A stretch of DNA of 64,000 nucleotides from the IMG/VR virus record IMGVR_UViG_3300031957_002938, positions 1-64,000 of that record, one strand, 5' to 3'. The notes under the pieces were generated by a model. The model saw nothing but the letters and a program-made list of their open reading frames with translations. It was not told the DNA's origin and did not search any database. The position numbers were made by a program, and so were the translations under genes. The stretch's first letter is position 1, and every line of letters starts with the position of its first letter. Source of the stretch: a virus. Shown here piece after piece: positions 32,501 to 51,275 of this stretch.

Positions 32501-33419
32501 CATCTTTTTTTAATTGTTTGTCCCAAAAATACTGAAGGTCTACTGCCCAGAGCTTCGTGCCTAAAACAAGAATTTTAGGAATTAGTTCTTCGCTTTTTTC
32601 TCTAGACCCACTAAACACAAATTGACAGCAGTCTGTATACTCTGCCTGTATTTCACGCATCCTATGATAAACATAATCTAATTTAAATTTTTTGTATACC
32701 TGTTTATTAACAGCCCACATTTGGTCGAAAGCTGTTTCTATCACTATAAACAAGTAACAACCCGTAGATCTGCACCTATCTAATTCTTTTAAGAACCGAT
32801 TGTATCCATTTGTGACAGTAGAACAAAAATCCTGGTAAGACTTCCTATCCACGAATGTATAGTCATATAAATCGCCCCCCACTGCATAATCCCCGACATC
32901 AAGCTTCAACAACTTAGAATTGGTGAAATGCAGGGGCTTCTGCTCTCTTGTATCTATCAGTATGGGTGTATCTGAATAATCTTTGTTGAATTGCTTCGGC
33001 AGAGGTTCGGAAAGCATGGGTTTCATGTCTAACTGTTTACATGTCTCTTTGTAGCTGCCGAAGATCTGTTTACACAGATCTATGTCTGGCAGATTGCTAG
33101 TGAGTAGGTAAGTGGACGGGGGTCCAGACGAAACCGCTTTGGAAAGGAATTTTTTGTCTAAGGATGCGACAATGAAATCTTTAACTTCCTCCTTTGGTGC
33201 TTGGAGACACCATTTTTTCATATTTCTTTTATTTATGAAATCTGTAGCGAAATACTGTTTATAATTTTTAAAAGGTATTAACTCTCCAGTTAACTTGTCT
33301 TTTCTTCCGTAATTCTCGACATAGTAGTCTCCCAACAGTTTACCGTGCTTTCTCATGTGAGAATGCAGTCCTTTTAAGGAATCAAATGAATCCCCACATA
33401 TTTTACATTTATATGACAT
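32409..33419 (-). CDS. C2H2 zinc finger plus ERCC4/XPF-type nuclease
   Basis: CKIC...HMRKH; IDTREQ, LDVGDY and VDRKS..DF motifs. Confidence 0.8.
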   Translation of the reverse strand: MSYKCKICGDSFDSLKGLHSHMRKHGKLLGDYYVENYGRKDKLTGELIPFKNYKQYFATDFINKRNMKKWCLQAPKEEVKDFIVASLDKKFLSKAVSSGPPSTYLLTSNLPDIDLCKQIFGSYKETCKQLDMKPMLSEPLPKQFNKDYSDTPILIDTREQKPLHFTNSKLLKLDVGDYAVGGDLYDYTFVDRKSYQDFCSTVTNGYNRFLKELDRCRSTGCYLFIVIETAFDQMWAVNKQVYKKFKLDYVYHRMREIQAEYTDCCQFVFSGSREKSEELIPKILVLGTKLWAVDLQYFWDKQLKKDGLGNRKTETTPTVQGYKQRYSRKRGFYRGN

Positions 33420-34458
33420 CTTGCTGTCCTATTCCCAAAACTCTTGCTTTCCATTCTGCCATACCCTCTAATCTTTCCGCTTCCTGCTTCACAGCCTCCT
33501 TTTGCATCTCTGCAATTCTTACCATTGTTTCTCTTTCTTCCTCTTCTTGGAAAAGTTGCACTATAGACAAAAACGAAGCATTTTCTTTGTTCATCTTCTT
33601 CATCCTTTCGCTTCTGTCTCCTTGAAGCTTTTTTGTCAGGTTCTCGATGCGGGTTTCACATTGATGATACTCTCCGCTCTTAGCTTTGATGATTTCAGCC
33701 AACCTGATAGACATTTCTTGCTGCTCGTCAGCATCATCGAACATGCTATTCAGTTTGTTCAAGTGAGCGCTAATAACTTCTAAGTTTATGACTTCCTTGC
33801 ACACGTTTAAATACAAATTTATTTCGTCTGCGGTTAAGTCGGGTTTATCCCAAGTCAATCGAGTAAATTCGTGTTCGAACAACACTCGATCCTCTTGATT
33901 TAAATAATTGTTAATAATTTTAAGAAATCTTGAGTTAGAAAAGTTAACCCCTAGTTTTTCTACGCAAATTTGTTTTTGTCTATTAAGTTTTGATTCATCT
34001 AACCTCAAACCAGTGGCATCATTGATTTTTTTGATGATTCGTGATGAAGACTTCGGTGCAATGTATGAATTGAGAGCGCCTGAATCTTGAGAAGGTAAAA
34101 TGTCAGGATTTACCTCTCTAATTTGCGACAGAACAGCTCTTTGCTCATTACTCAATGGTCTTACAGATCTAGACGGAAAAACTATGCGAGCTATCTCTAA
34201 AGAAGACAACCCTTCTCCAGCTTGTTGAATTATAAAATCTTTTTGCTCTTTTGTGAATTCTATAGTCTCGGTAGGCATTCTCGCTGTAGTTTTGAAATCT
34301 ATAGAATTTTCTACCAAAAATTTTCTTACAGCCCTACCTTCTTTGGACCTTCCGTCTAAAGAATCGTCTTCGAAACACTGTTTCGTTAAATCAATTAGAT
34401 CAGGGATCTTTGATGCGTTCTCCCTTAAAAAATCCTTCTGTTCTTTAGTTAGATCCAT
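33409..34458 (-). CDS. Hypothetical helical/HTH protein, candidate terminase small subunit
   Basis: Two xTKEQKDF repeats, LSSLEIARIV HTH-like segment, C-terminal coiled coil; upstream of terL. Confidence 0.4.
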   Translation of the reverse strand: MDLTKEQKDFLRENASKIPDLIDLTKQCFEDDSLDGRSKEGRAVRKFLVENSIDFKTTARMPTETIEFTKEQKDFIIQQAGEGLSSLEIARIVFPSRSVRPLSNEQRAVLSQIREVNPDILPSQDSGALNSYIAPKSSSRIIKKINDATGLRLDESKLNRQKQICVEKLGVNFSNSRFLKIINNYLNQEDRVLFEHEFTRLTWDKPDLTADEINLYLNVCKEVINLEVISAHLNKLNSMFDDADEQQEMSIRLAEIIKAKSGEYHQCETRIENLTKKLQGDRSERMKKMNKENASFLSIVQLFQEEEERETMVRIAEMQKEAVKQEAERLEGMAEWKARVLGIGQQDVI

Positions 34459-35131
34459 CTCCTATAATATCTTGGTCCCTAAGTATTTCCATAGCTACCT
34501 GTAGGAACTTCTTTTTTAAATTTTTTACTTGTCTATAGCCAAGTTTTCTTTTTTGAGCAGAAATTTTGTAACCCATGAACTTAGCTACGTCTTCTTCACT
34601 GTTTTTTTCGAAATACAACATCCTATACGCAGTATAATGAATATTACTTAAACGAATTTTCATTTGACCGTTTAACCTCTCTAAAGATACAGTAAAATCA
34701 AAATCTATGTATTCTTTACCTTTTACCTCTTTAACAAAATCTTCAGTGGAAAGTGGTAACTTAACTTCTAAAGCTGATTTTTTTGTTTTTTTCCATTTTT
34801 GACATATAGGGCAAGTTGATGAATCATGATCTGGCTCATGTTGCTTGGGACAAGGGTTAACATAATTGCCGTAGTGATTTCTCACTAGGTTTCTTATTTG
34901 ATTAGATATTATTCTACCAATCCAAGGTTCAAGAGGTCTTTCTTGATCCCACATATGCCACTTCTTAGAAATGTGCAATTTGATGATTTGCTGAACATCA
35001 TCGAAGTCAAACCATTTTACAGCGTTAAGTCTCCACTTATATTGCTGTTTTTTAATCGCTGCGTCAATTACTTCAGAAAAGTCTTCATAAGTATACTCAC
35101 CCTTCTTTTTTCTTTTCATCAATAAATTCAT
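34445..35131 (-). CDS. Second sigma-factor-like protein
   Basis: DFDDVQQ...KWHMWDQERPLEPWIGRIISNQIRNLVR (region 2) and C-terminal HTH EEDVAKFMG. Confidence 0.7.
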   Translation of the reverse strand: MNLLMKRKKKGEYTYEDFSEVIDAAIKKQQYKWRLNAVKWFDFDDVQQIIKLHISKKWHMWDQERPLEPWIGRIISNQIRNLVRNHYGNYVNPCPKQHEPDHDSSTCPICQKWKKTKKSALEVKLPLSTEDFVKEVKGKEYIDFDFTVSLERLNGQMKIRLSNIHYTAYRMLYFEKNSEEDVAKFMGYKISAQKRKLGYRQVKNLKKKFLQVAMEILRDQDIIGDGSN

Positions 35132-37337: not shown

Positions 37338-37604
37338 TCTTAATTATAGGGTCTGATTATTTTTTTTAAACAATAAATAGAACTCATGCCCCCGTTTACC
37401 ACGCCCAGACAAATGGGTGGGGGTTTCACCGTTGATAAATTGATAATGGACTCCCCCGCTCATTTTGCCACGCAAACGCTTAAAAATATTTTCAGAAATG
37501 GGGTGGGGTCTTGTGGGGTGTCAAGTCTTTTTTTAAATAAAAAAAAATAAAAAAAATACAATAAACTAGTTGCGTTTAGTTTTAATCTGTGCTATACTTA
37601 CTAC

Positions 37605-37835
37605 ATGAAAAACAAAGAATTAATAAATCGTTTAGGTAATGGAGTTGAGTTCACCGCACAAGGTGAGTGGTTTGTAGTCGCAGACACCGACTTTGAAAAT
37701 GGTGTCGTGTGGGGCGTTGATCAAGACGGCGGCGAGCGCGAGGTCTCTATAGATTCTATAGATGACATAAGCGAAAGTTTAGCCGACATGGTAAGCCGTG
37801 ATTGGTCGCCTATGCTCAACAAATTGAGCATATAA
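37605..37835 (+). CDS. Early hypothetical protein
   Basis: Leaderless promoter TTGCGT-N17-TATACT-N6-ATG. Confidence 0.75.
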   Translation: MKNKELINRLGNGVEFTAQGEWFVVADTDFENGVVWGVDQDGGEREVSIDSIDDISESLADMVSRDWSPMLNKLSI

Positions 37836-37899
37836 AAAAAAGATCAAAAAAGATCAAAAAAGATCTTGATTAACTTTTAACCCTGTGCTATATTCAGAT

Positions 37900-38046
37900 A
37901 TGGAAAATAAAACAGATAAATACATCATCTACGGTCAGTATGACCGAGATCATGAGTTTGACGGCACACTCGAAGAGTGCCGCGAGTGGATTCGCGTAGT
38001 CGATCCTAAGTGCAAGTGGTACTTCATAGCTCACGAGAGTGAGTAA
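37900..38046 (+). CDS. Early hypothetical protein (48 aa, MENKTDKYII...)
   Basis: Own promoter TTGATT-N17-TATATT-N5-ATG; fills the gap exactly. Confidence 0.7.
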   Translation: MENKTDKYIIYGQYDRDHEFDGTLEECREWIRVVDPKCKWYFIAHESE

Positions 38047-38099
38047 AAAAGATCAAAAAAGATCTTGACTAACTTTTAACCCTGTGCTATAGTATAAAC

Positions 38100-38303
38100 A
38101 TGACAGCAAAACAAGAATTACAATCAATCGAAGGCGAGGAAATCATTTTCAACATCTTTGACAATCAAGTCGAGCAAGGCATCCTTTCCTTTGATGCAAA
38201 TGAAAATGCGATAGTGACCTTTGACGATGGCGAGACAATGCAAATAAAAGTCGAGCAGTTCGTTGACACATACGAAAATTGGAGCAAAGAAAACTTCAGC
38301 TAA
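38100..38303 (+). CDS. Early acidic hypothetical protein
   Basis: Promoter TTGACT-N17-TATAGT-N6-ATG. Confidence 0.75.
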   Translation: MTAKQELQSIEGEEIIFNIFDNQVEQGILSFDANENAIVTFDDGETMQIKVEQFVDTYENWSKENFS

Positions 38304-38356
38304 AAAAATATAATAAAATAGTTGCAATCAATTCTAATCTAGATTATACTTAAGCC

Positions 38357-38557
38357 ATGACAAAGACCAATCAAATCAGAATCACACGTTACTCTCACGC
38401 AAATCAGTATGACAATTCTCATTGTGGAATTGTTATAAACAAGGACAGATCAAAAGCATATGTCACGGTTCACGTTGCAGAAATGGCTTTTAAGTGCGTA
38501 GATGTCTCAAGAGAGGACGCGCTAAAGATCCTCAAGACAATGAAATCGGAGGCATAA
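38357..38557 (+). CDS. Early hypothetical protein
   Basis: Promoter TTGCAA-N17-TATACT-N6-ATG. Confidence 0.75.
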   Translation: MTKTNQIRITRYSHANQYDNSHCGIVINKDRSKAYVTVHVAEMAFKCVDVSREDALKILKTMKSEA

Positions 38558-38609
38558 AAAGATCAAAAAAGATCTTGATTAAAATCTAAAATTCAACTAT
38601 ACTACCCAC

Positions 38610-38783
38610 ATGACAGCAACCGAAGAAGCACTAGCAGCAATGGCCAAAGCAGAAGAAGCGTGGAACGAAATGGTTAACAGAACCGTCGATGTCTCGGGCC
38701 AGTTCGTAAAAGAATGCCAAGAGTTCCAGAAAGAGCAGCGGGAATGGCTGCGCGAAAAAAAAGATTCTAAAAACGCAAAATAA
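38610..38783 (+). CDS. Early hypothetical helical protein (57 aa, MTATEEALAAM...)
   Basis: Promoter TTGATT-N17-TATACT-N6-ATG. Confidence 0.7.
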   Translation: MTATEEALAAMAKAEEAWNEMVNRTVDVSGQFVKECQEFQKEQREWLREKKDSKNAK

Positions 38784-38820
38784 TCCTTGCACTAATCCAA
38801 AATTCAACTATACTACTCAC

Positions 38821-39081
38821 ATGACAGCAAGCAAAGAATACTACCGCAGCGTAACTTGGGACGATGGCCGCACAGTCAAATTCAACGATGACTTCGAAGT
38901 CGAAGGCTTCACCAAGGTCACCGATATATGGCCTTCTGAAAGTTCTATAGCTAGGAACCTTGAGCAACGCAAAGCTTTAGGCGGCGGCAAGTCTTTCGGA
39001 TACCGCTACAAGTCTATGCAAAGACAAGACTGGTATGTAGACTTCGACGCAAAAGCTTTCTGGGCTTCTGATAACGTCTAA
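38821..39081 (+). CDS. Early hypothetical protein
   Basis: Promoter TTGCAC-N16-TATACT-N6-ATG. Confidence 0.75.
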   Translation: MTASKEYYRSVTWDDGRTVKFNDDFEVEGFTKVTDIWPSESSIARNLEQRKALGGGKSFGYRYKSMQRQDWYVDFDAKAFWASDNV

Positions 39082-39124
39082 AAAAAAACTTTACTAACTT
39101 CTAAAACTACACTATACTACCCAC

Positions 39125-39373
39125 ATGAAAAAATTATTCTCTACTATCAATCACTTCATCGACCGCTTTCTCTTTAGCCTGATGATATGCGTTAGCTTTA
39201 ACCTTGCGCTCATATGCATAGCCGTCTTAATCGGTAGCGGTCCCGCACTTTTCAAAAGCGTTCTTCACGGTTGGGATGGCCTCGACTTTCTCGCTGTCAT
39301 GTTTATACCGAGCACTTTCGGCGCGGTTGTGTTATTGTTAGGGGATGCAGTCTTGAAAATAGTTCACAAATAA
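39125..39373 (+). CDS. Early two-TM membrane protein
   Basis: Two hydrophobic segments; promoter TTTACT-N17-TATACT-N6-ATG. Confidence 0.7.
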   Translation: MKKLFSTINHFIDRFLFSLMICVSFNLALICIAVLIGSGPALFKSVLHGWDGLDFLAVMFIPSTFGAVVLLLGDAVLKIVHK

Positions 39374-39403
39374 TCTTGACAGGGTAACCTGTCGCTGTCA
39401 TGG

Positions 39404-39434
39404 AGCCTCGTCACCCAAGGGTGGCGGGGCTTTT
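39404..39434 (+). terminator. Rho-independent terminator
   Basis: AGCCTCGTCACCC-AA-GGGTGGCGGGGCT followed by a T run. Confidence 0.75.
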
Positions 39435-39500
39435 ACTTTCTAAAAAAAAGTTAAAAAAAAACTTGACAAAGCTGCTTGTTGATAGTATGTAAAAAGCCTC

Positions 39501-39577
39501 GTAACTCACTGATAGTCAACGACTTACAAGGGCGCGGCCCCCGCCGCCCCGTAAGTGACTGATACTCAACGACTTAC
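39501..39577 (+). repeat. 77-bp bipartite palindromic element, copy 1
   Basis: gtaactcactga-tag-tcaacgacttac, 23-bp GC spacer, gtaagtgactga-tac-tcaacgacttac. Confidence 0.92.
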
Positions 39578-39761
39578 GAGCCTTTATACGCACAGTCGAT
39601 CTGGGGGGCTGTCAAGTAAAAAAACACACTATTTACTATTTATCTATTTAACGTGTGACCTGCGACCTGCAACGTGTCAAGTGAAATTTAAATAATAAAA
39701 AATAATAAAAAAGAATAAAAATGGTTGCATTAAACAAAAAATAGGTTATACTTACCCCATC

Positions 39762-39932
39762 ATGACAGAGACAAAATCAGATCTTCAACAACTCCTCCAA
39801 GAACAGACTGCGGTCGCACTTATGAGAGACGACATCTCGTTTCTTATCGGTTGGACTAAAGCCGACAATCCAGAAATCGCTCAAAGACTTGAGGACATCT
39901 TGGCTAATCACACAAAAAACAGAAATAAGTAA
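39762..39932 (+). CDS. Early hypothetical protein (56 aa, MTETKSDLQQ...)
   Basis: Promoter TTGCAT-N16-TATACT upstream; stop abuts the next ATG. Confidence 0.7.
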   Translation: MTETKSDLQQLLQEQTAVALMRDDISFLIGWTKADNPEIAQRLEDILANHTKNRNK

Positions 39933-39933
39933 A

Positions 39934-40125
39934 ATGATAAATCGAATCGATCAAATCCTAGCAAACCTAAACTGTGCCGCTGTAGATGGCGGCTTCTGCC
40001 TCTTTGTAAAGGATGGGGAAATTGTAGCCAAGGATCTTCTCTCCGAGGAGCCTCTTGAGTTTAATATCAGATTCGTTGGAACTGACATCTCTGACATCGA
40101 AGCAAAACCACTCACCAAAAAGTAA
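39934..40125 (+). CDS. Early hypothetical protein (start ATG 39934, MINRID)
   Basis: Translationally coupled to its neighbours. Confidence 0.65.
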   Translation: MINRIDQILANLNCAAVDGGFCLFVKDGEIVAKDLLSEEPLEFNIRFVGTDISDIEAKPLTKK

Positions 40126-40126
40126 C

Positions 40127-40501
40127 ATGGGACTAGACCAATACGCAAAAAAAGTAAAGAGGAGATACAATCACGAAACCCTCACGGAGACAATCGTCAA
40201 AACTGAAATAGGTTACTGGCGCAAGCATCACGCACTAGAGTCTTATATGGCTGAACTATACAGCACTAAGACATATGATACAGGAGAGTTTAACCTTAAA
40301 ACTCTTAATCTTGACTCTGATGACTTGGATACCTTGGAAATGGTAATTAAAAAAAGTTTGTTACCTAAAACAGTATGGGGAGGGGTCAAGGATTGCACTG
40401 AAGATAATGACGAATATAAAGAAACTGATCTTGAGTTTATAACTAAAGCAAGAAAATGTCTCGCCAAAGGTTTCGAGGTGCAATATACATCTTGGTGGTA
40501 A
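40127..40501 (+). CDS. Conserved phage hypothetical protein (MGLDxY...YWRK...SWW family)
   Basis: MGLDQY start, EIGYWRKHHAL, C-terminal YTSWW. Confidence 0.75.
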   Translation: MGLDQYAKKVKRRYNHETLTETIVKTEIGYWRKHHALESYMAELYSTKTYDTGEFNLKTLNLDSDDLDTLEMVIKKSLLPKTVWGGVKDCTEDNDEYKETDLEFITKARKCLAKGFEVQYTSWW

Positions 40502-40562
40502 AGACTTAAAAAAAAAGTAATAAAACGCTTGCGCCCTCATAGGATCGGGGTATACTAATAGC

Positions 40563-40769
40563 ATGACAGTTCAAAATCCAATAGGCGACTTACAACCAAT
40601 GAATGAAACCGATCTCCGCGAAATGCTCGACGACGGGCCTCGCGCTGGCAACTGGAATCCCACACCCGACGAGGTGCAGGAGGCGCTAGCGCAGATCCAC
40701 GCCGACATGGGTGACCGCGACCCTAACTGGTCATCGGAGGTTGAGGATCAAGACGAGATCCCGATGTAA
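40563..40769 (+). CDS. Early acidic hypothetical protein
   Basis: Promoter TTGCGC-N16-TATACT-N6-ATG. Confidence 0.7.
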   Translation: MTVQNPIGDLQPMNETDLREMLDDGPRAGNWNPTPDEVQEALAQIHADMGDRDPNWSSEVEDQDEIPM

Positions 40770-40772
40770 GCT

Positions 40773-40849
40773 GTAACTCCCTAAGTCTCAACGACTTAGG
40801 GGGGCGCGGCCCCCGCCCACTCGTAACTCGTTGATACTCAACAGGTTAT
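40773..40849 (+). repeat. 77-bp bipartite palindromic element, copy 2
   Basis: Same 27+23+27 architecture; starts 4 nt after a stop codon. Confidence 0.92.
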
Positions 40850-40922
40850 GAAGCAAAAATAAAAATGCATTTAAATGCAAAAAAAAGGTTGCAATCTCTA
40901 TTTGTTGTGATATACTACGTCC

Positions 40923-41297
40923 ATGAAGTTGAAATTCCCCAAACTCTGGAGCAAAAAAAACAACAAATTACCACTTGACCTAACCCCACTTATCGGTTAT
41001 ACTACTCTCATGAATAAAACAACACACATCCTCAACACAGGTCCACACAACGACCTTCCTTCCAACCCTATCGAACTCGCCTCTGCTTTGACTGGCAAAA
41101 CTTTGGTATACAATGCTATCAAGTCCACCGTTAAAAGTAATAACACTAGAGTGTTTAAAGTTCAAAAGGTTGATGACGTATATACTTCAAACTCTACTGG
41201 TGAGAAGTGCGTGACTGTTTGGGCTAACGACATCGATAGAGATGGAGAACTTGTCCCTCGCACTTTGCACGTTCACGGTATCAAATCAATTTCCTAA
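40923..41297 (+). CDS. Early hypothetical protein (alternative in-frame start 41010)
   Basis: Two leaderless promoters, one before ATG 40923 and one before ATG 41010. Confidence 0.7.
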   Translation: MKLKFPKLWSKKNNKLPLDLTPLIGYTTLMNKTTHILNTGPHNDLPSNPIELASALTGKTLVYNAIKSTVKSNNTRVFKVQKVDDVYTSNSTGEKCVTVWANDIDRDGELVPRTLHVHGIKSIS

Positions 41298-41410
41298 TGG
41301 GGGAAGTGTGTGGTGGGGGGTGGTCTGCTGAAAGTAAAAGTATGTAGGCGGCTGCCCCCCATTTCCCTAAAAAAACTTTACAAACAATAAACAATAAACT
41401 ATACTAACCC

Positions 41411-41629
41411 ATGTCAAAATCACCTGAATCAATTCGTATCGAAGTCCAAAATAAAGATCAAGCTATCTTGCTTCAACACGCCTTACGTATCGTTCATCAA
41501 GACCTCGCCTCATATATGGGAGAGGTGCAAGATGACAAGTTCGAAAATTTTGTGGATAATGTGAAATGGACGCGTAAGCATCTAACTTCATTAGACAAAA
41601 AGTTTTCTTTGACTGCTAGCGAGTCTTAG
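41411..41629 (+). CDS. Early hypothetical protein
   Basis: Promoter TTTACA-N17-TATACT-N5-ATG. Confidence 0.7.
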   Translation: MSKSPESIRIEVQNKDQAILLQHALRIVHQDLASYMGEVQDDKFENFVDNVKWTRKHLTSLDKKFSLTASES

Positions 41630-41755
41630 AAAATCGGTGGTAACAGTGACCAACTCTTAATTGACTGGCACTCGTCAACAAGCCGACCCTCTCCTGTTTT
41701 TTCAGCGCAGTCTAATTAGTGGGAGGGGGAACCAATTTTCTTTTGGACATATCTA

Positions 41756-41793
41756 CCTCGTCCCCTTCTGTCATGGGGGGCGGGGTTTTCCTT
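41756..41793 (+). terminator. Rho-independent terminator
   Basis: CCTCGTCCCCT...GGGGGGCGGGG-TTTT. Confidence 0.65.
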
Positions 41794-41794
41794 T

Positions 41795-41871
41795 GTAACT
41801 CACTGATACTTAGGGGGTTACGAGGCAGCGGCCCCCCGCGCCGTGTAACTCGTTGATACTCAATGACTTAC
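41795..41871 (+). repeat. 77-bp bipartite palindromic element, copy 3
   Basis: gtaactcactga-tac-ttagggggttac, 23-bp GC spacer, gtaactcgttga-tac-tcaatgacttac. Confidence 0.92.
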
Positions 41872-42011
41872 GAGGCAAAAATAAGCACACTTTTCTAGGT
41901 CTGTCAAGCATTTATTCTAACTATTTTGTCAAGAACTATTTTACCCAAAAAAGATTCAAATTAAATGCAGAAAGTTATTGCAATCCGTCTCATTCTCGCT
42001 ATACTTCTTGC

Positions 42012-42866
42012 ATGAGCTTAATCCTAGCTAAAAACAAAGTAAGTCGCGAGCAACTCGCGGCTGTCGATTCAGACACAGGTCTGTTTCTCGAAGGATTCGG
42101 TGAAAACGGAGTAGCTAAAAGGACTCCTGATTCCACCGATACCCACACACCAATCGCTCACTCGCTTCTCGTTGATGAAGCGCACAAGGCATTGGATCGG
42201 TTCGGCTTCGCAGTCGAAGAAGAAGAACACGCTCTCGCGTGTGCAGGTGACCAATACTTTGGCGGCTTTGCCATCAAAGGTCAAGATATCGAAGCTGCTG
42301 ACCGCCGTTTGGTTGTCGGTCTTCGCAACTCGCATAACAAGCGTTTTTCCGCTTCGGTTTGCATCGGCAACCAAATGATGGTTTGTGAAAACCTTTGTTT
42401 CTCTTCTGATGTAAAGCTTGCTCGCAAGCATACAAAATACATCGTCGGGGATCTTTCGCGCCTCCTTTCGGATGCAATCTCTAGTGTCGTCGAGCATTGG
42501 TCCGACATGGGCGACCGCATCAAAGCCTACAAGGCTACAGAGGTCGCTTCTAATCGCGTTGCCGACTTGGTTGTAGACTTGGTTGATGCCAAGGCCGTTG
42601 CTAAAGGTCGCATCTACGATGTTGTCGAAGAGTTTCGCAACCCTCGTCACGACGAGTTCAAAGGCGGCTCTCTCTGGACTCTCTACAATGGGATCACAGA
42701 GAATCTCAAGGGCAACGATATGACTTTGTTGTCAAATCGGACTCGCAAGATTCAAGGAATCTTTGACAGGGTAGCGGGTCACACCTCGCTCGCGCAAATC
42801 GAAGCGGCTAAAAAAGCCGCCGAGGAAGCCGCGAAAGAGGCCGAGATGGTCGCGCTTCCCGCGTAG
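42012..42866 (+). CDS. DUF932-family protein (true start ATG 42012, MSLILAKN)
   Basis: THTPIAH, GLRNSHNK..S...G..MMVCENL, RKHT and SLWTLYNGITE motifs; leaderless promoter. Confidence 0.8.
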   Translation: MSLILAKNKVSREQLAAVDSDTGLFLEGFGENGVAKRTPDSTDTHTPIAHSLLVDEAHKALDRFGFAVEEEEHALACAGDQYFGGFAIKGQDIEAADRRLVVGLRNSHNKRFSASVCIGNQMMVCENLCFSSDVKLARKHTKYIVGDLSRLLSDAISSVVEHWSDMGDRIKAYKATEVASNRVADLVVDLVDAKAVAKGRIYDVVEEFRNPRHDEFKGGSLWTLYNGITENLKGNDMTLLSNRTRKIQGIFDRVAGHTSLAQIEAAKKAAEEAAKEAEMVALPA

Positions 42867-42880
42867 GTAAACCCATCACA

Positions 42881-42910
42881 GCCCGTCCCCGAGAGGGGGC
42901 GGGTTTTTTT
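42881..42910 (+). terminator. Rho-independent terminator
   Basis: GCCCGTCCCC-GAGA-GGGGGCGGG-T7. Confidence 0.85.
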
Positions 42911-42959
42911 GTGCTTTCTTAAAACTTTTTTCTTGACACGCATTAAAGTAATAACCTTC

Positions 42960-43036
42960 GTAACTCGTTGGTTATCAATGAGTTAGGCGGCGCGGGGGGC
43001 CGCGCCCTCGTAACCCCTTGACTATCAACGTGTTAC
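42960..43036 (-). repeat. 77-bp bipartite palindromic element, copy 4 (inverted)
   Basis: Spacer gcggcgcggggggccgcgccctc is the reverse complement of the type in copies 1-3; arm centres tta/cta. Confidence 0.92.
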
Positions 43037-43095
43037 AACTGAAAATAAATGCAATTAAATTTGACAACGGTTTGCCCCCGTGCTATATTTAAGCC

Positions 43096-43332
43096 ATGAC
43101 ACCACCGAGACTAACCACAGAATCTTTTTCTATTTGCTATTATGATGGCAATACTGGAGAAGTAATAGAGCTTAAAACTTATCTTAATAACACTGGCCGA
43201 GTAATAGATACTTTGGAAATGGCTGTTGACAGCAAGCCCGAGTATGATGGACTTGTGCTATGGGATATAAACACTGTGAAAGAAGCAGATGACGACAGGA
43301 AACACATTGCAAAAAAAGTTTACCACAAGTAA
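43096..43332 (+). CDS. Early hypothetical protein
   Basis: Promoter TTGACA-N17-TATATT-N6-ATG. Confidence 0.75.
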   Translation: MTPPRLTTESFSICYYDGNTGEVIELKTYLNNTGRVIDTLEMAVDSKPEYDGLVLWDINTVKEADDDRKHIAKKVYHK

Positions 43333-43397
43333 ATTAATTTAATTAATTTTAATTAAAAAAAATTGACAAACCGAGCGAGTCTTGTATACTAATGCTC

Positions 43398-44084
43398 ATG
43401 TCAAACCTACTTAATTCAGGAAACTATAAAACGAGTAAGGGCGAAAAGTATGGTTGGAAAACCTATGGCTTGCACCTTGCACCCTTTAACTTATCAGGAA
43501 AAAATGTTTGCTCTTCTGCTTCTGTTGGTTGTTCTACTGCTTGCCTCAATACTGCTGGTCGTGGATCAATGCATTCAGTTCAAGATGCCCGAGTTAAAAA
43601 AACACAGAGGTTTTTCGAGGATCGGGTTGAATTCTTATCGCAGCTATTCAAGGAAATCAAAAGCTCGGTCAAGAGCGCGGCGAAGAAACAAATAAACTCT
43701 TGTTTCAGGCTTAATCTCACAAGCGACTTGCCTTGGGAGAATATGGTGGTCAAACACTTTCCAGATTCTCAATTCTACGACTACACAAAACACTTAAAAA
43801 GATTCGTTGCATACTTAGAGGGAAAGCTCCCTGACAATTACCATCTTACTTACTCCAGGGATGAAACAACGCCCGATACATTAGTTCAAAGCTTGTGTGC
43901 AAGTGGTGGAAACGTCGCTGTCGTTTTCCGAGGAAGTCTCCCAAAGACATGGCTTGGAATCGAAGTGATCGATGGCGACGATTCAGACTTGCGCTTTAAA
44001 GATGGCAACGGTAAAATTGTTGGGTTGCTAGAGAAAGGTCTTGCTAAGAAAGATGAAACTGGATTCGTAGTAGAGCCATGTTAA
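43398..44084 (+). CDS. Gene product 88 (GP88)-like, radical-SAM-related protein
   Basis: C-x6-C-x3-C (CSSASVGCSTACL), RLNLTSD, FYDYTK, NYHLTYS, GDDSDLRF. Confidence 0.75.
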   Translation: MSNLLNSGNYKTSKGEKYGWKTYGLHLAPFNLSGKNVCSSASVGCSTACLNTAGRGSMHSVQDARVKKTQRFFEDRVEFLSQLFKEIKSSVKSAAKKQINSCFRLNLTSDLPWENMVVKHFPDSQFYDYTKHLKRFVAYLEGKLPDNYHLTYSRDETTPDTLVQSLCASGGNVAVVFRGSLPKTWLGIEVIDGDDSDLRFKDGNGKIVGLLEKGLAKKDETGFVVEPC

Positions 44085-44161
44085 TAGATCCTCACTGGTT
44101 TATAATAATGATGACTTTACTTTTAACCCTTTGCTGCTATAGAAAACGAGAGTAATAAGAT

Positions 44162-44344
44162 ATGACAATAGAAGTAACACAAAAAGAAGTTTATGGAAAC
44201 ACCCTCACCTATGTGGCAGATGAATCCATAAGGAACTCCATAAAGAAACTAACGGGAAGAAAAACCTTGACAGACTATGACATCGAAGCTCTTAAAGAGC
44301 TAGGCTTTGTCTTAGTGCTTAAGCAAATGACCGTTGCTATCTAA
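44162..44344 (+). CDS. Small phage hypothetical protein
   Basis: KEVYGN...KLTGRKTLT...LKELG pattern. Confidence 0.7.
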   Translation: MTIEVTQKEVYGNTLTYVADESIRNSIKKLTGRKTLTDYDIEALKELGFVLVLKQMTVAI

Positions 44345-44351
44345 AACCCCC

Positions 44352-44428
44352 GTAACTCCTTGAGTATCAAGGGGTTAGAGGGCGCGGGGGGGCGCTCCCG
44401 CCTAACTCGTTGAGTATCAGTGACTTAC
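44352..44428 (-). repeat. 77-bp bipartite palindromic element, copy 5 (inverted)
   Basis: gtaactccttga-gta-tcaaggggttag, G-run spacer, ctaactcgttga-gta-tcagtgacttac. Confidence 0.92.
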
Positions 44429-44453: not shown

Positions 44454-44479
44454 AAAAAAACCCGCATTGCTGCGGGTTT
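44454..44479. terminator. Terminator at the convergence of early (+) and accessory (-) transcription
   Basis: A7-CCCGCA-TTGC-TGCGGG-TTT. Confidence 0.75.
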
Positions 44480-45570: not shown

Positions 45571-45644
45571 TAGGTGCGGTGGGATTCGAACCCACACTTT
45601 ACGGATTTTAAGTCCGTTGCCTCTGCCAGTTGGGCTACGCACCC
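45571..45644 (-). tRNA. tRNA-Leu(TAA), short variable loop, no encoded CCA
   Basis: GGGTGCG acceptor, D-arm with TGG, anticodon arm ACGGA-CTTAAAA-TCCGT, GTGGGTTCGAATCCCAC T-arm, A discriminator. Confidence 0.9.
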
Positions 45645-46909: not shown

Positions 46910-47226
46910 TTGCCGCTAATATACCTCTTGTATTCTGCTTTGACAAGTGGAATAACCATATAATCCACAATTCTTACTAAAGCCTCTTCTGTATTATCGC
47001 AGTCGAGAATGTTAGATAAACCGCCGACTCCTAAAGCTGCATGATGAGCTTCATGAATCAAAGTATCTAACTGCTCCTCTGGACTAAGACCTTTTCTGAT
47101 TGCAATAACCCTCTTATCAAAATCCATTTGCCCGAAATCATCCATCTCTTTGAAGACAACTTTGAACTTCATCCCTCCCACGGTTATCGTGGAAGGGGGC
47201 TTGTAAATCTTTTTTCTTTGGGCCAT
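46906..47226 (-). CDS. Small HExxH metallopeptidase-like protein
   Basis: FGQMD...I.I...DTLIHEAHHA...EEALV. Confidence 0.7.
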   Translation of the reverse strand: MAQRKKIYKPPSTITVGGMKFKVVFKEMDDFGQMDFDKRVIAIRKGLSPEEQLDTLIHEAHHAALGVGGLSNILDCDNTEEALVRIVDYMVIPLVKAEYKRYISGK

Positions 47227-48146
47227 TATCCTATCTTTTCTAATGCTTTAATTCCTTTACCTGTAATCTCTCTCTTGCCATCGATTCTCATAAACCCATT
47301 CTTCAAGAGAAACACTTCTGAATCTTTTTGTAATGCGGTTCTAGACATACCAGTAACAGCAGATAACATCTGCAAGGTGCAAGCTCCACGCTCTTTCAAG
47401 ATTCGCATCACTTGTAGCTCGGTGTTATTGATACCATATGGCATAATACCTAGCAAGTCACATAGATTATCCCACTCTTTTTTGCCGAATCTGGATTTGT
47501 TATTAACTTCGGCCCATGCACTGATCTCTAATGCTCTCTTGATAGCAGACCGTGCATTACCTCGAACTGTTTGGCAGACTTCTTTAAGAACATTACCCTC
47601 GAACTTAATCCAGTCTAATTTTCTTTGCAGTATGCCACCCAACTGATCTGCGGTATAAGGTTCAAAATCAAGTTGAGTAAGGCGATCTTTAAATGGTGGG
47701 AACAATTTATCAAGCTCTGTAGTAGCGAATAGAAAAGTCTGACGCTCGAACTCGAAGAATAAGGTAGATTCACCGAACTCAAACCTCTTGGTCTTCGCTC
47801 CCTCTACGTTAAATATTGTAAGGAATGCCATCTCAAGATCTTTGGGTAGTGAGTGACACTCATCCAAAAGAATGGTAACGTCCTTATCTAAAATAGCAGG
47901 AATAAAAATTTGTTCAAAGAACTGCTCTGCATTACGAATGGTAGAACAATTAATTTCAATCATTGGCTTCTGTAGAGACTTAGCAAAAGATTTCGCAAAC
48001 TCTGTCTTGCCCAATCCTTTAGCTCCATTAAAAACAATAAAAGGAAGCGTTCCTGTAGCTTTCTTTGCTCTGCTGTAAAACTTGAGACGCTTTTTAAGTG
48101 TCTCCTGTCCAATCAGCCCATCAAACATATCAGTGGTATTGCTCAT
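47226..48146 (-). CDS. ruvB: RuvB-like Holliday junction branch-migration AAA+ ATPase
   Basis: FDGLIGQ, GAKGLGKT, LLDECH, FATT, PFKDR, RGNAR, C-terminal winged helix with E.FL...G.....G R.IT.KG. Confidence 0.75.
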   Translation of the reverse strand: MSNTTDMFDGLIGQETLKKRLKFYSRAKKATGTLPFIVFNGAKGLGKTEFAKSFAKSLQKPMIEINCSTIRNAEQFFEQIFIPAILDKDVTILLDECHSLPKDLEMAFLTIFNVEGAKTKRFEFGESTLFFEFERQTFLFATTELDKLFPPFKDRLTQLDFEPYTADQLGGILQRKLDWIKFEGNVLKEVCQTVRGNARSAIKRALEISAWAEVNNKSRFGKKEWDNLCDLLGIMPYGINNTELQVMRILKERGACTLQMLSAVTGMSRTALQKDSEVFLLKNGFMRIDGKREITGKGIKALEKIG

Positions 48147-50861: not shown

Positions 50862-51275
50862 TCATTGTTTAAGATATTCTATTGCTTTTTTAAGTAAATT
50901 AACATCGTCTTTAAAACACCCAATCGCACGATTACATGGATGGCAAAGCCAACCTCTGGCCTTATCTGTTAAATGGCAATGATCTAAAACCCAAGCGCCC
51001 AACTTTAACCCTCCTTTTCCTACGACATCCCCTTCACTTCCCCCACAAATAGGACAGCGGTGATCGGGTGAGGGAGGAGGTGTTATTTGTTTTAAACGCT
51101 CTCGGACATGAGCTAGTTCATTATTACATTTTCTGCACTCTGGTCGATAATAGTTTGCTCCTCCATGCATCGAAAAGCTATCAATAGGTAGAACCTTGTG
51201 ACATTTATTGCACTGGCGAGTTTCTACTCCTTTAGGTATCGAATAAATTTCTCCAAATAATTCTGTTTGGATCAT
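50862..51275 (-). CDS. Recombination endonuclease VII family nuclease
   Basis: CPICG...LDHCH.T...RGWLCHPCNRAIG.FKD...L.KAIEYL. Confidence 0.88.
   Translation of the reverse strand: MIQTELFGEIYSIPKGVETRQCNKCHKVLPIDSFSMHGGANYYRPECRKCNNELAHVRERLKQITPPPSPDHRCPICGGSEGDVVGKGGLKLGAWVLDHCHLTDKARGWLCHPCNRAIGCFKDDVNLLKKAIEYLKQ

What the first reader, a model, noticed from the sequence alone, without database searches (positions are those of the whole stretch)
39501..44428. Five evenly spaced 77-bp bipartite palindromic elements in a convergent (>>> <<) array: candidate undescribed cis-acting system
Seen: copies at 39501-39577, 40773-40849, 41795-41871, 42960-43036 and 44352-44428. Each has exactly two 27-bp imperfect palindromes (12-bp half-site consensus GTAA(C/G)TCNYTGA, 3-bp centre, inverted half-site) whose starts are exactly 50 bp apart. 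Between them is a 23-bp GC-rich spacer (consensus RRGGGCGCGGCCCCCCGCGCCNY) that can fold as GGCGCGG/CCGCGCC. Lengths are invariant while sequence drifts, which points to geometric selection for protein binding. The elements are polar. Copies 1-3 have a C-run spacer and arm centres TAC/TAG (one GTC); copies 4-5 have a G-run spacer and centres GTA/CTA/TTA. All are intergenic, following a stop or terminator, and start-to-start spacing is 1272, 1022, 1165 and 1392 bp. Inference: paired dimer-binding sites for a phage protein. Possible roles are recombination sites that excise or invert early gene cassettes (the 12-bp inverted half-sites recall serine-resolvase res subsites), an origin or polar fork-control array, or staged DNA-injection signals analogous to the T5 injection-stop region. 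No recombinase is visible in this window.
Basis: partly seen in the sequence, partly recalled or inferred. Interest (0 to 1): 0.9.

Follow-up and report, generated by a model that had tools for sequence, protein, structure and literature searches.

The report
Double DNA-bending-protein sites between phage genes
Five copies of a 77-letter double palindrome sit between the early genes of an uncultured marine phage; they belong to a widespread, apparently undescribed repeat family whose two arms look like ideal docking sites for a bacterial DNA-bending protein of the IHF/HU type.

Summary
Five 27/23/27 elements lie at the stated coordinates: 10 arm sites against 0.02 expected by chance, and none elsewhere in the 89.7-kb record.

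They belong to a large family. It is always confined to the early-gene region.

The arms are sequence motifs, not stems:
- Arm 1 with arm 2 pairs less often than shuffled.
- Each arm on itself pairs barely above shuffled.
- Only the GC spacer shows modest self-complementarity.

The arm equals the IHF consensus WATCAR-N4-TTR mirrored about its W, with the two kink steps 9 bp apart. The same palindrome occurs singly in Fibrobacter and Bacteroidota genomes. There it lies beside integrase genes and beside an iteron origin.

The phages searched encode no HU/IHF, integrase, resolvase or Y1 transposase.

Best reading (0.45): host HU/IHF-type architectural sites forming boundaries between early transcription units, with cassette gain and loss as a by-product.

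Not conserved in the family: the exact geometry, the polarity, and any general excess of breakpoints at elements.

The scan met this family before on other DNA (note e1-6053766).

The parts
39501..39577 (.). Element c1: arm 39501-39527, GC spacer 39528-39550 (C-run on +), arm 39551-39577. The palindrome extends about 8 nt into both flanks.
   Evidence: RNA fold z -7.9
40773..40849 (.). Element c2: arm 40773-40799, spacer 40800-40822 (C-run on +), arm 40823-40849. It starts 3 nt after the stop of gene 40563-40769.
41795..41871 (.). Element c3: arm 41795-41821, spacer 41822-41844 (C-run on +), arm 41845-41871. It lies directly after the terminator-like site 41755-41786.
42960..43036 (.). Element c4, inverted relative to c1-c3: arm 42960-42986, spacer 42987-43009 (G-run on +), arm 43010-43036.
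   Evidence: (I1, I4, I5)
44352..44428 (.). Element c5, inverted: arm 44352-44378, spacer 44379-44401 (G-run on +), arm 44402-44428. It starts 7 nt after the stop of gene 44162-44344 and is the last element before the switch to minus-strand genes.
   Evidence: (I2, I3, I6)
39402..39433 (+). Intrinsic-terminator-like hairpin plus T-run upstream of c1.
41755..41786 (+). Intrinsic-terminator-like hairpin plus T-run abutting c3.
42880..42905 (+). Intrinsic-terminator-like hairpin plus T-run upstream of c4.
44458..44479 (.). Bidirectional terminator-like hairpin 30 nt after c5, at the convergence of plus- and minus-strand genes.
40889..40916 (+). Sigma-70-like promoter (TTGCAA-16-TATACT) of the leaderless gene 40923-41297, 39 nt after c2.
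41978..42005 (+). Sigma-70-like promoter of the DUF932-like gene (ATG 42012), 106 nt after c3.
43061..43089 (+). Sigma-70-like promoter (TTGACA-17-TATATT) of gene 43096-43332, 24 nt after c4.

Best explanation
Each 27-bp arm is a high-affinity, fully symmetric binding site on double-stranded DNA for a dimer of the HU/IHF (DNABII) family of DNA-bending proteins. The protein is most likely supplied by the host.

Each arm reads TAA-N4-TTGA-(xWx)-TCAA-N4-TTA. This is the IHF consensus WATCAR-N4-TTR mirrored about its W. Both beta-arms of one dimer can then kink the DNA at the two A|A (T|T) steps 9 bp apart, and both flanks offer a TTR clamp element.

One element therefore carries two sharp protein-induced bends about 50 bp apart. 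They flank a short, very GC-rich, weakly self-complementary spacer that is hard to melt.

The elements sit in the gaps between a stop codon or terminator and the next promoter of the one-gene early transcription units. There they most likely act as architectural boundary (insulator) elements. They would keep neighbouring strong early units apart, either by hindering read-through polymerases or by stopping transcription-driven supercoils from spreading.

Because the arms are conserved between copies and between phages, they also offer short homologies at which cassettes are occasionally lost, gained or swapped.

Shown: the motif, its symmetry, its lack of stem covariation, its position and its distribution. 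Inferred: the identity of the binder, the bends and the boundary function.
For: (1) The arms are conserved as sequence, not as structure.
- Arm 1 with arm 2: 77.4% paired against 79.6% shuffled; 500 of 500 shuffles are at least as high.
- Each arm on itself: 84.9% against 83.9%.
- At the variable positions 5/23 and 8/20, 48-58% of sequences are unpaired.
- An unbiased profile of 103 partner arms from protein-selected loci keeps TAA/TTA at 0.99, T10/A18 at 0.99, C7/G21 at 0.92 and W at the centre at 0.78.

(2) Match to the IHF consensus in the right register.
- 459 of 725 distinct arms carry the full WATCAR-N4-TTR on at least one strand. TATCAA is the commonest word at positions 14-19.
- Published passages state that IHF kinks its site about 9 bp apart, that T44 is the centre of TTR, and that it lies 6 bp from the nearest kink (PMC5829579; bioRxiv 10.1101/382655).
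- This places the kink at the A|R step and the dyad on W. In the arm, A18|A19 and T9|T10 are 9 bp apart, with the dyad at position 14.

(3) A cellular binder exists.
- The same palindrome, variable at the same positions, is in 16 orthologous Fibrobacter loci.
- Fibrobacter genomes hold 2-16 copies each against 0 for the reversed control.
- A Bacteroidota MAG holds 8 copies on 8 contigs.

(4) In bacteria the palindrome lies in classical architectural-site contexts.
- It lies 54-56 nt before tyrosine integrase genes in L174 and L139. In L174 it directly follows a tRNA-like 3' end.
- It lies between an A/T-rich stretch and at least 9 iterons of a Rep_3 origin in L173.

(5) The phages do not encode HU/IHF: 0 of 1 and 0 of 15 over cut-off, 4 of them complete.

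(6) Position. 364 of 393 paired elements are intergenic. The median distance is 43 nt after the upstream stop and 93 nt before the next start. In the window, 3 of 5 follow a terminator and 4 of 5 precede a promoter.

(7) The element is conserved in the clade: 16 of 16 close relatives, and it is confined to the early region in complete genomes.
Against: - No binding experiment exists. The IHF match rests on a consensus that I went looking for among many remembered motifs.
- The arms hold more information than the E. coli IHF consensus. T6, C7, G21, A22, G1 and C27 are also conserved.
- Arms have genome-specific flavours: ATAA..TTAT ends in G009, 53-bp spacing in G007 and GTGC variants in G006. 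These could reflect co-evolution with a phage-encoded protein.
- The arm-to-arm distance varies (50 in 182 of 434, 41-42 in 87). The two bends therefore have no fixed helical phase.
- Only about 5 of roughly 17 promoter-bearing junctions in the window's early block carry an element. They are not an obligatory part of a transcription unit.
- The host is unknown.
- Sampled marine Flavobacteriaceae and Rhodobacteraceae almost never carry the palindrome: 2 of 151 genomes each, counting the centre genome.
- My derivation of the kink position from '6 bp away' could be off by one base pair.
Confidence: 0.45

Rival explanations
1. Operator array for a phage-encoded dimeric regulator of unknown family. 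An early or middle phage protein binds each arm, two dimers per element, and shuts off or insulates early transcription. This would resemble the dispersed repressor sites ('stoperators', recalled) of mycobacteriophage L5.
For: - Arms are confined to the early region.
- Arms have genome-specific flavours and spacings.
- Conserved positions go beyond the IHF consensus.
- Many early proteins have no known family.
Against: - The same palindrome with the same variable positions occurs in bacterial chromosomes and mobile elements that share no genes with the phage.
- No helix-turn-helix or similar candidate was found among the genes scanned.
- The only array-resident gene that tracked the elements in a small comparison (GP88) is absent from G006, which does have elements.
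- The distance from element to promoter is variable: quartiles 65-141 nt to the next start.
Confidence: 0.25
2. Recombination modules whose main role is cassette exchange. The conserved arms, perhaps with the GC spacer extruded as a cruciform and cut by the phage's junction enzymes, mediate deletion, insertion and swapping of early-gene cassettes. This would be like PeSLs of T4-type phages or a recombinase-free analogue of integron attC sites.
For: - L233, L242, L246 and L070 carry an extra 590-840-bp cassette between two elements where this phage has the single element c1.
- Gene 43096-43332 is an indel abutting c4.
- Cassette order differs in L104.
- The phage encodes a RuvB-like ATPase, endonuclease VII and an ERCC4 nuclease.
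Against: - There is no overall excess of homology-block ends at elements: 8 of 139 (6%) against 4% expected if uniform, and 15% against 13% within intergenic space.
- Other indels (37620-38356 and 40127-40501) are not element-bounded.
- No integrase, resolvase or Y1 transposase was found in 0 of 5 records.
- Copies within a genome differ by 20-40%, which is poor substrate for homologous exchange.
- The strong conservation of specific arm positions is not explained by a need for homology alone.
- Contig 'joints' between arms have short sides of 22-31 nt and are what cross-mapping would give.
Confidence: 0.15
3. RNA-level element: a long hairpin, or three hairpins, in read-through transcripts. 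It would act as a terminator, an RNase III-type processing site as in the T7 early region (recalled), or an mRNA 3' stabiliser like REP.
For: - Each copy folds well as RNA: about -39 kcal/mol, z -3.5 to -7.9 on the + strand.
- Elements lie close after stop codons.
- The spacer shows modest covariation.
- About a fifth of the elements have a downstream T-run.
Against: - There is no compensatory change in the arms.
- Only 44 of 218 tandem-context elements have a T4 run within 20 nt downstream, while 94 have an A4 run.
- 3 of 5 window copies lie behind a canonical terminator and so are probably little transcribed.
- Elements occur in either orientation and between divergent genes (40 cases).
- No Rfam family matches.
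Confidence: 0.07
4. Replication or injection signal: origin-like sites, a polar fork trap, or stepwise DNA-entry stops.
For: - Orientation is convergent (>>> <<) in this window.
- Flanks are A/T-rich.
- The same arm flanks an iteron origin in a Bacteroidota plasmid-like contig.
Against: - Orientation patterns are mixed in relatives and half of the elements are unpolarised.
- There are up to 16-18 elements per 10 kb in some relatives, too many for origins or stops.
- There is no GC-skew turn at the array.
- No initiator gene is known nearby.
Confidence: 0.05

Closest known systems
IHF binding sites (consensus WATCAR-N4-TTR), as in lambda attP H', plasmid iteron origins and att/int regions
   Same: - The arms have the same words in the same register.
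- The W lies on the dyad, and the kink steps are 9 bp apart.
- The conserved stretch is about 27-29 bp, and IHF's footprint exceeds 25 bp.
- In bacteria the palindrome lies beside integrase genes and iterons.
   Different: - Natural E. coli IHF sites are asymmetric, with the consensus on one side and often an A-tract on the other. Here both halves carry the consensus.
- Extra positions are conserved here (T6, C7, G21, A22).
- Sites come in pairs around a GC spacer.
- Binding has not been shown.
REP/BIME elements of enterobacteria, especially the IHF-binding BIME-1 (RIP/RIB) class
   Same: - Extragenic position, after genes.
- Two palindromic units plus a short linker of variable length (abstracts of PMC3333891 and PMC2817692).
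- Linked to nucleoid-protein binding. The RIP/RIB details are recalled.
   Different: - In RIP the IHF site is the linker between two GC-rich REPs (recalled). Here the IHF-like sites are the arms and the linker is GC-rich.
- There is no GTAG or CGTC head.
- There is no stem covariation.
- There is no RAYT/Y1 transposase.
- There are 5-18 copies confined to a phage early region, not hundreds across a chromosome.
PeSL (promoter-early stem-loop) cassettes of T4-type phages (Arbiol et al. 2010, PMC2839356; abstract read)
   Same: - Repeated intergenic modules among small, non-essential early genes.
- Associated with insertion, deletion and replacement between relatives.
   Different: - PeSLs consist of a strong promoter plus a terminator stem-loop. 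These elements contain no promoter; the promoters are separate and at variable distance.
- Most lack a terminator T-run.
- They are protein-site palindromes.
- The phage is siphovirus-like, not T4-like.
- No overall excess of breakpoints was measured.
Integron attC sites
   Same: - Imperfect palindromic elements of similar size follow single-gene cassettes.
- One cassette indel is flanked by two elements.
   Different: - There is no integron or other tyrosine recombinase.
- The cassettes have their own promoters.
- Pairing of the two arms is not selected, whereas attC works as a folded strand (recalled).

Membership tests
IHF/HU (DNABII) binding site | Match to WATCAR-N4-TTR | tested here: met
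   459 of 725 distinct arms carry the full consensus on at least one strand. TCAR and TTR are present in both halves of nearly all arms. The consensus wording was confirmed in a passage of bioRxiv 10.1101/382655.
IHF/HU (DNABII) binding site | Two kinks about 9 bp apart, centred on the dyad | tested here: met
   Derived, not measured. Passages say the kinks are about 9 bp apart and that the centre T of TTR lies 6 bp from the nearest kink. In the arm the mirrored A|A steps (9|10 and 18|19) are 9 bp apart around position 14. The uncertainty is plus or minus 1 bp.
IHF/HU (DNABII) binding site | Physical binding and bending by the protein | not testable with these tools
   No tool models protein-DNA binding. 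A gel shift or footprint is needed.
IHF/HU (DNABII) binding site | Occurrence at places where architectural sites are used (att/int regions, iteron origins) | tested here: met
   L174 and L139: the arm lies 54-56 nt before PF00589 integrase genes. L173: the arm lies between an A/T-rich stretch and at least 9 iterons before a Rep_3 gene. This is three loci only.
REP/BIME | Conserved GTAG or CGTC head on each unit | tested here: not met
   Arms begin (Y)GTAA and end TTAC(R). The head rule comes from the abstract of PMC3733652 (listing).
REP/BIME | Stem-loop maintained by compensatory change | tested here: not met
   Arm self-pairing is 84.9% against 83.9% shuffled. Arm-to-arm pairing is below shuffled.
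REP/BIME | Associated RAYT (Y1) transposase | tested here: not met
   PF01797: 0 of 5 records, 3 of them complete; the control rang in 6 of 14 genomes. A host-encoded RAYT cannot be excluded.
PeSL | Early promoter inside the repeated module | tested here: not met
   Promoters lie 24-147 nt beyond the elements in the window and at variable distance in the family.
PeSL | Stem-loop that terminates transcription | tested here: inconclusive
   Only 44 of 218 have a downstream T4 run. No transcript data exist: no RNA holder is listed.
PeSL | Recombination between copies shuffles modules | tested here: inconclusive
   There is one element-bounded cassette indel, seen in 4 relatives. Breakpoints in or near elements are 8 of 139 against about 4% expected.
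Integron attC | Integron integrase present | tested here: not met
   PF00589: 0 of 5 records; the control rang in 14 of 14 genomes.
Integron attC | Folded-strand pairing of the two halves conserved | tested here: not met
   Arm 1 with arm 2: 500 of 500 shuffles are at least as paired.
Serine-resolvase res site | Resolvase or invertase gene | tested here: not met
   PF00239: 0 of 5 records; the control rang in 12 of 14 genomes.
Intrinsic terminator | GC-rich hairpin followed at once by a U-tract | tested here: not met
   The spacer hairpin is followed by arm 2, not by Ts. A T4 run follows the whole element in 44 of 218. Three window copies sit behind separate canonical terminators.
Known RNA families (Rfam 15) | Covariance-model match | tested here: not met
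   No match on the elements at E up to 1; only tRNA-Leu at 45571-45644.
Polar replication fork trap (Ter-like) | Conserved convergent orientation of sites | tested here: not met
   Orientation strings in 25 multi-copy loci are mixed, and about half of the elements are unpolarised.

The most novel reading that the evidence does not exclude
The elements are the cis sites of an undescribed, recombinase-free cassette-exchange system of lytic marine phages. Two host DNABII dimers bend the arms and force the GC spacer out as a cruciform. The phage's own junction enzymes (RuvB-like ATPase, endonuclease VII, ERCC4 nuclease) then process this four-way junction. Single early-gene cassettes, each with one element, would thus be excised, captured and reshuffled. 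This would be a functional analogue of integron attC recombination without an integrase.
Probability: 0.1. Interest if true: 0.85.

Novelty: new variant of a known kind. Interest (0 to 1): 0.62.

Why it matters
If the reading holds, a large and abundant clade of uncultured marine phages has built a dedicated class of boundary elements from idealised host architectural-protein sites. This phage was found in seawater metagenomes of about nine studies.

- It would be a clear viral counterpart of the REP/BIME and PeSL ideas.
- It would be a natural 'perfect' symmetric IHF/HU-type site, useful for structural and synthetic-biology work.
- It would be a handle on how lytic phages insulate dozens of strong, leaderless, one-gene early units from one another.
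- The arm motif may serve as a host clue, because in cellular genomes it is concentrated in the Fibrobacterota-Bacteroidota group.
- The arm motif also marks cassette borders in metagenomic phage contigs.

Even if the binder turns out to be a phage protein, the family is widespread. I found no published description in the searches made.

Tried and rejected
**Database and literature searches that found nothing useful**
- blastn of the 7-kb region against cultured phages: no match.
- blastn of one element against cultured phages: only three E~0.8 hits inside Achromobacter phage genes. Against plasmids: none.
- Literature search for the four half-site strings: 4 papers, all unrelated primers or genomes. 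I read the one ICE paper's passage and it is a PCR primer.
- Two keyword searches for a published description: nothing relevant in the listings. Subscription journals and supplements are not covered, so 'undescribed' means not found in these searches.

**Fibrobacter flank genes as binder candidates**
- The 136-aa protein has no Pfam family, and the 505-aa protein is an M23 peptidase.
- Neither has a homologue in the phage or the viral loci.

**GP88 as a dedicated partner**
- It lies inside the arrays and seemed to track them.
- G006 has elements but no GP88, and Fibrobacter has arms but no GP88.
- It has no relative in the PDB.
- Close relatives give no variance: 8 of 8 have both.

**A mistake I corrected**
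- I first took G006 as an element-free control. This was wrong: it has variant arms that the strict pattern missed.

**Cassette breakpoints**
- The idea that breakpoints cluster at elements came from a few relatives. It was not borne out by the systematic count.

**Sequencing runs**
- No RNA holder is listed. All holders are stored as assembled contigs.
- Laid contigs are fragmented. The joints between arms of different elements have sides of 22-31 nt at 88% likeness and are most likely cross-mapping of other copies or relatives. They were not used as evidence.

**Host and motif checks**
- Host family test: arms were found in 2 of 151 Flavobacteriaceae and 2 of 151 Rhodobacteraceae genomes, each count including the centre MAG whose arm lies on a phage-like contig. 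This gives no host assignment.
- Other remembered motifs were compared by eye and rejected for wrong register or symmetry: CIRCE, FNR and CRP boxes, parS, the CtrA box, GTnAC, the Fur box and dif.

**Not attempted**
- Structure prediction, the complex prediction and the large protein searches. None would test DNA binding.

Full report
**The thing itself**

- The repeat finder returns one family of five copies with start-to-start spacings 1272, 1022, 1165 and 1392 (D1). The five align without gaps.
- A 27-bp palindrome pattern with up to three mismatches finds ten sites. These are two per element, with starts exactly 50 bp apart. Shuffled sequence gives 0.02.
- The window is the first 64 kb of an 89,658-bp IMG/VR virus record estimated 81% complete. 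In the whole record the half-arm motif occurs only in these five places, apart from one 2-mismatch chance hit.
- Copies 4 and 5 are inverted relative to copies 1-3 (I1-I6).
- The genes from 37.4 to 44.4 kb are all on the plus strand. They are small, and most have a sigma-70-like promoter whose -10 box ends 7 nt before the ATG, so they are leaderless.
- c1, c3 and c4 follow terminator-like hairpins. c2 and c5 follow stop codons by 3 and 7 nt. c1-c4 are followed by the next promoter, and c5 by a bidirectional terminator where the strand switches.

**The genome**

It is a large siphovirus-type phage.
- Annotated genes include a 2132-aa tape measure, a large terminase, ribonucleotide reductase, a PhoH-like ATPase, a weak sigma-70-like protein, a RuvB-like ATPase, endonuclease VII and an ERCC4 nuclease.
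- Its terminase is at most 26% identical to that of any cultured phage.
- The region is held by seawater and marine metagenome runs of about nine studies.

**A large family**

- A position-weight scan of those loci finds 850 arms at 16 bits or more, against 4 in shuffled sequence.
- 393 arms are paired and 64 are single.
- The arm-to-arm distance is 50 in 182 of 434 cases, 41-42 in 87 and 48 in 25. The rest are scattered from 25 to 74. The 27/23/27 geometry is the mode, not a rule.
- In loci chosen by the PhoH protein rather than by DNA, 16 of 16 with at least 4.5 kb on the early side carry 6-15 arms there and none on the other side.
- In complete relatives the arms are confined to one 10-12-kb region: G007 105-116 kb, G009 114-125 kb, and G008 across the record ends.
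- G006 first looked element-free. It has variant arms that the strict pattern missed.
- Arrays reach 16-18 elements in 10 kb.

**Sequence motif or folded strand?**

Each copy folds well as RNA, but that follows from the palindromic consensus. On a gap-free alignment of 106 elements:
- Arm 1 with arm 2 forms fewer standard pairs than column-shuffled controls: 77.4% against 79.6%, with 500 of 500 shuffles at least as high.
- Each arm with itself is one point above the shuffles: 84.9% against 83.9%, with 4 of 500 at least as high. The tool warns that this margin arises without constraint.
- At the variable positions about half of the sequences are mismatched. Columns 13/31 have 51 of 106 unpaired, and columns 16/28 have 62 of 106.
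- The GC spacer does show an excess: 57.5% against 49.4 ± 1.1, 0 of 500 shuffles, and slid controls of 41-47%. Still, barely more than half of the cells pair.
- My own contingency analysis gave the same picture.
- An unbiased profile was read from the unconstrained partner arm in protein-selected loci, using 103 windows. It keeps TAA/TTA at 0.99, T10/A18 at 0.99, C7/G21 at 0.92 and T6/A22 at 0.93. Position 5/23 is C or G only, and the centre is A or T in 78%.
- No Rfam family matches.
- Only 44 of 218 elements between co-directional genes have a T4 run within 20 nt downstream, while 94 have an A4 run.

The arms are therefore double-stranded protein sites. Most elements are not intrinsic terminators.

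**What binds?**

The arm core is TAA-N4-TTGA-NNN-TCAA-N4-TTA. The centre triplets are dominated by GTA/TAC (21%), TAA/TTA (20%), CTA/TAG (15%) and ATA/TAT (10%). TATCAA is therefore the commonest word at positions 14-19, and 459 of 725 distinct arms carry the complete WATCAR-N4-TTR on at least one strand.

That is the IHF consensus. I recalled it and then confirmed it in a passage of bioRxiv 10.1101/382655. Passages of that preprint and of PMC5829579 say three things:
- IHF kinks its site at two points about 9 bp apart.
- H'44A is the centre position of TTR.
- That position lies 6 bp from the nearest kink.

This puts the kink at the A|R step of WATCAR and the pseudo-dyad on W. In the arm the mirrored steps T9|T10 and A18|A19 are 9 bp apart around position 14. 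Each arm thus has the geometry of an IHF site made fully symmetric. This is an inference from sequence plus published geometry, with an uncertainty of one base pair. It is not a binding result.

**Host or phage factor?**

- The phage has no HU/IHF-family gene.
- Nor do 15 element-bearing records searched, four of them 100% complete, at the family cut-off. Five further handles were not held.
- A strict single-arm pattern found 56 stretches in one-genome-per-species bacteria and archaea.
- By my count of the record titles, 25 are Fibrobacter or Fibrobacteraceae, 8 Bacteroidota, 3 Zixibacteria and 1 Gemmatimonadota.
- Several of the rest are phage-like contigs binned into MAGs, with all arms on one contig. 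A few are plain hairpin terminators, such as the three Zixibacteria loci.
- Sixteen Fibrobacter loci are orthologous. The arm lies between a giant gene and a 136-aa plus M23-peptidase operon, and it varies at the same positions as the phage arms.
- Whole Fibrobacter genomes hold 2-16 arms with up to 3 mismatches, against 0 for the reversed pattern.
- A Bacteroidota MAG holds 8 arms on 8 contigs.
- Fibrobacter genomes have two generic HU/IHF-family genes each.

Three bacterial loci are telling:
- In L174 the arm directly follows a tRNA-like 3' end and precedes a tyrosine integrase gene by 54 nt.
- In L139 an arm precedes an integrase gene by 56 nt.
- In L173 the arm lies between an A/T-rich stretch and at least nine 22-bp iterons in front of a Rep_3 initiator gene.

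These are the classical places for architectural protein sites. So a cellular protein recognises this palindrome, and a DNABII protein is the best candidate.

Points against this reading:
- The arms conserve more positions than the E. coli IHF consensus.
- Arms show genome-specific flavours.
- Sampled marine Flavobacteriaceae and Rhodobacteraceae almost never carry the palindrome.

**Host clue**

Only 10 of 99 genes have a Shine-Dalgarno-like word upstream. The GC content is 30-45%. Together with the cellular distribution of the arm, this is compatible with a Bacteroidota-type host. The link between low SD usage and that phylum is from my own knowledge. The early promoters look sigma-70-like, and no host is shown.

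**Recombination**

- No tyrosine recombinase, serine recombinase or Y1 transposase is present in this record, in three complete relatives or in G010. That is 0 of 5 for each family, with controls ringing.
- Some homology blocks stop or start exactly at elements.
- The four relatives L233, L242, L246 and L070 carry an extra 590-840-bp cassette between two elements where this phage has the single c1.
- Other indels (37620-38356 and 40127-40501) are not element-bounded.
- A systematic count of the ends of homology blocks of 200 nt or more gives 8 of 139 in or at an element, against 4% expected if uniform, and 15% against 13% within intergenic space.
- Laid metagenome contigs gave only short-sided joints that cross-mapping explains.

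Cassette exchange at the elements happens, but it looks like a by-product.

**Orientation**

By spacer C/G bias about half of the elements are unpolarised. In co-directional contexts the sense strand is C-rich in 73 and G-rich in 47. Orientation strings along 25 arrays are mixed. The >>> << pattern of this window is not a family trait.

**Mechanism proposed**

- Two DNABII dimers bind per element, and each makes a U-turn.
- They flank a GC-rich clamp that resists melting and may extrude.
- The element is placed in the terminator-to-promoter gap.
- The most economical function is an architectural boundary between strong, independent early units. This would be a block to read-through or to the spread of supercoils.
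- Only position supports this step, and only about 5 of 17 promoter-bearing junctions in the window have an element.

**Comparison with known systems**

- The arms pass the sequence and geometry tests for IHF-type sites, but binding is untested.
- The elements fail the defining tests for REP/BIME: no GTAG head, no stem covariation and no RAYT.
- They fail for PeSL: no internal promoter and mostly no terminator.
- They fail for attC: no integrase and no folded-strand pairing.
- They fail for res sites (no resolvase), for intrinsic terminators and for a fork trap.
- They work most like the IHF-binding BIME-1 class, turned inside out.

**Prior notes and print**

It read it as a dock for a DNA-bending protein and as a cassette boundary. 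I reached the IHF reading before seeing it and tested it independently. The two are not independent evidence.
- I found no description in print in the searches.

Noticed in passing
window 37570-44170: Most early genes are single-gene, leaderless units. A TTGnnn box, 16-17 nt, TATACT-like box and then the ATG 7 nt later. The promoter modules themselves are repeated (families D2-D4).
   Followed up: partly
whole genome G000 (99 called genes): Only 10 of 99 genes have GGAG/GAGG/AGGA at -18 to -4. This very low Shine-Dalgarno usage is a possible host clue.
   Followed up: partly
G000 80466-89658 (beyond the window): The 'ORF-poor' tail of the record is one open-ended reading frame of more than 3063 aa with 19 VGIGT repeats. 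It follows ORFs of 1549, 2971 and 887 aa and is probably a set of giant fibre or tail proteins.
   Followed up: partly
window 45571-45644 (-): The single tRNA of the record, tRNA-Leu(TAA), lies just right of the array.
   Followed up: no
window 47226-48146 (-), 50862-51275 (-), about 32574-32954 (-): A RuvB-like ATPase, an endonuclease VII domain protein and an ERCC4-type nuclease are present. The RuvB-like gene lies 2-3 kb from the array in G000, G007 and G009.
   Followed up: partly
window 39609-39616, 39675-39682, 41901-41908, 41927-41933: TGTCAAG words (the reverse complement of a -35-like CTTGACA) recur just right of c1 and c3. One gives a minus-strand promoter-like site that would fire into c3 (41907..41878).
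   Followed up: no
L130-L179 (16 Fibrobacter loci), for example L138:5822-5848: A single arm is conserved at one chromosomal intergenic site across 16 Fibrobacter species. It lies 150-230 nt from a 136-aa gene of no known family, which is followed by an M23 peptidase gene. Fibrobacter genomes hold 2-16 such palindromes.
   Followed up: partly
L173:3300-3745: A Saprospiraceae MAG contig has a textbook iteron origin: an A/T-rich stretch, the arm, at least 9 iterons and a Rep_3 gene.
   Followed up: partly
G006 about 145-150 kb (L226): The relative G006 (206 kb) has a huge tandem array of short words (about 700 copies of one 11-mer), presumably a repetitive protein.
   Followed up: no
window 34445-35131 (-) and 33409-34458 (-): A weak sigma-70 region-2-like protein and an unknown 349-aa protein lie next to PhoH. 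Both are conserved in all four complete relatives and in 39-46 of the viral loci.
   Followed up: no
window 43392-44084 (+): A GP88-family protein (Pfam E 7e-47) lies inside the arrays of G000, G009 and, weakly, G007. It has no solved relative and is absent from G006.
   Followed up: partly
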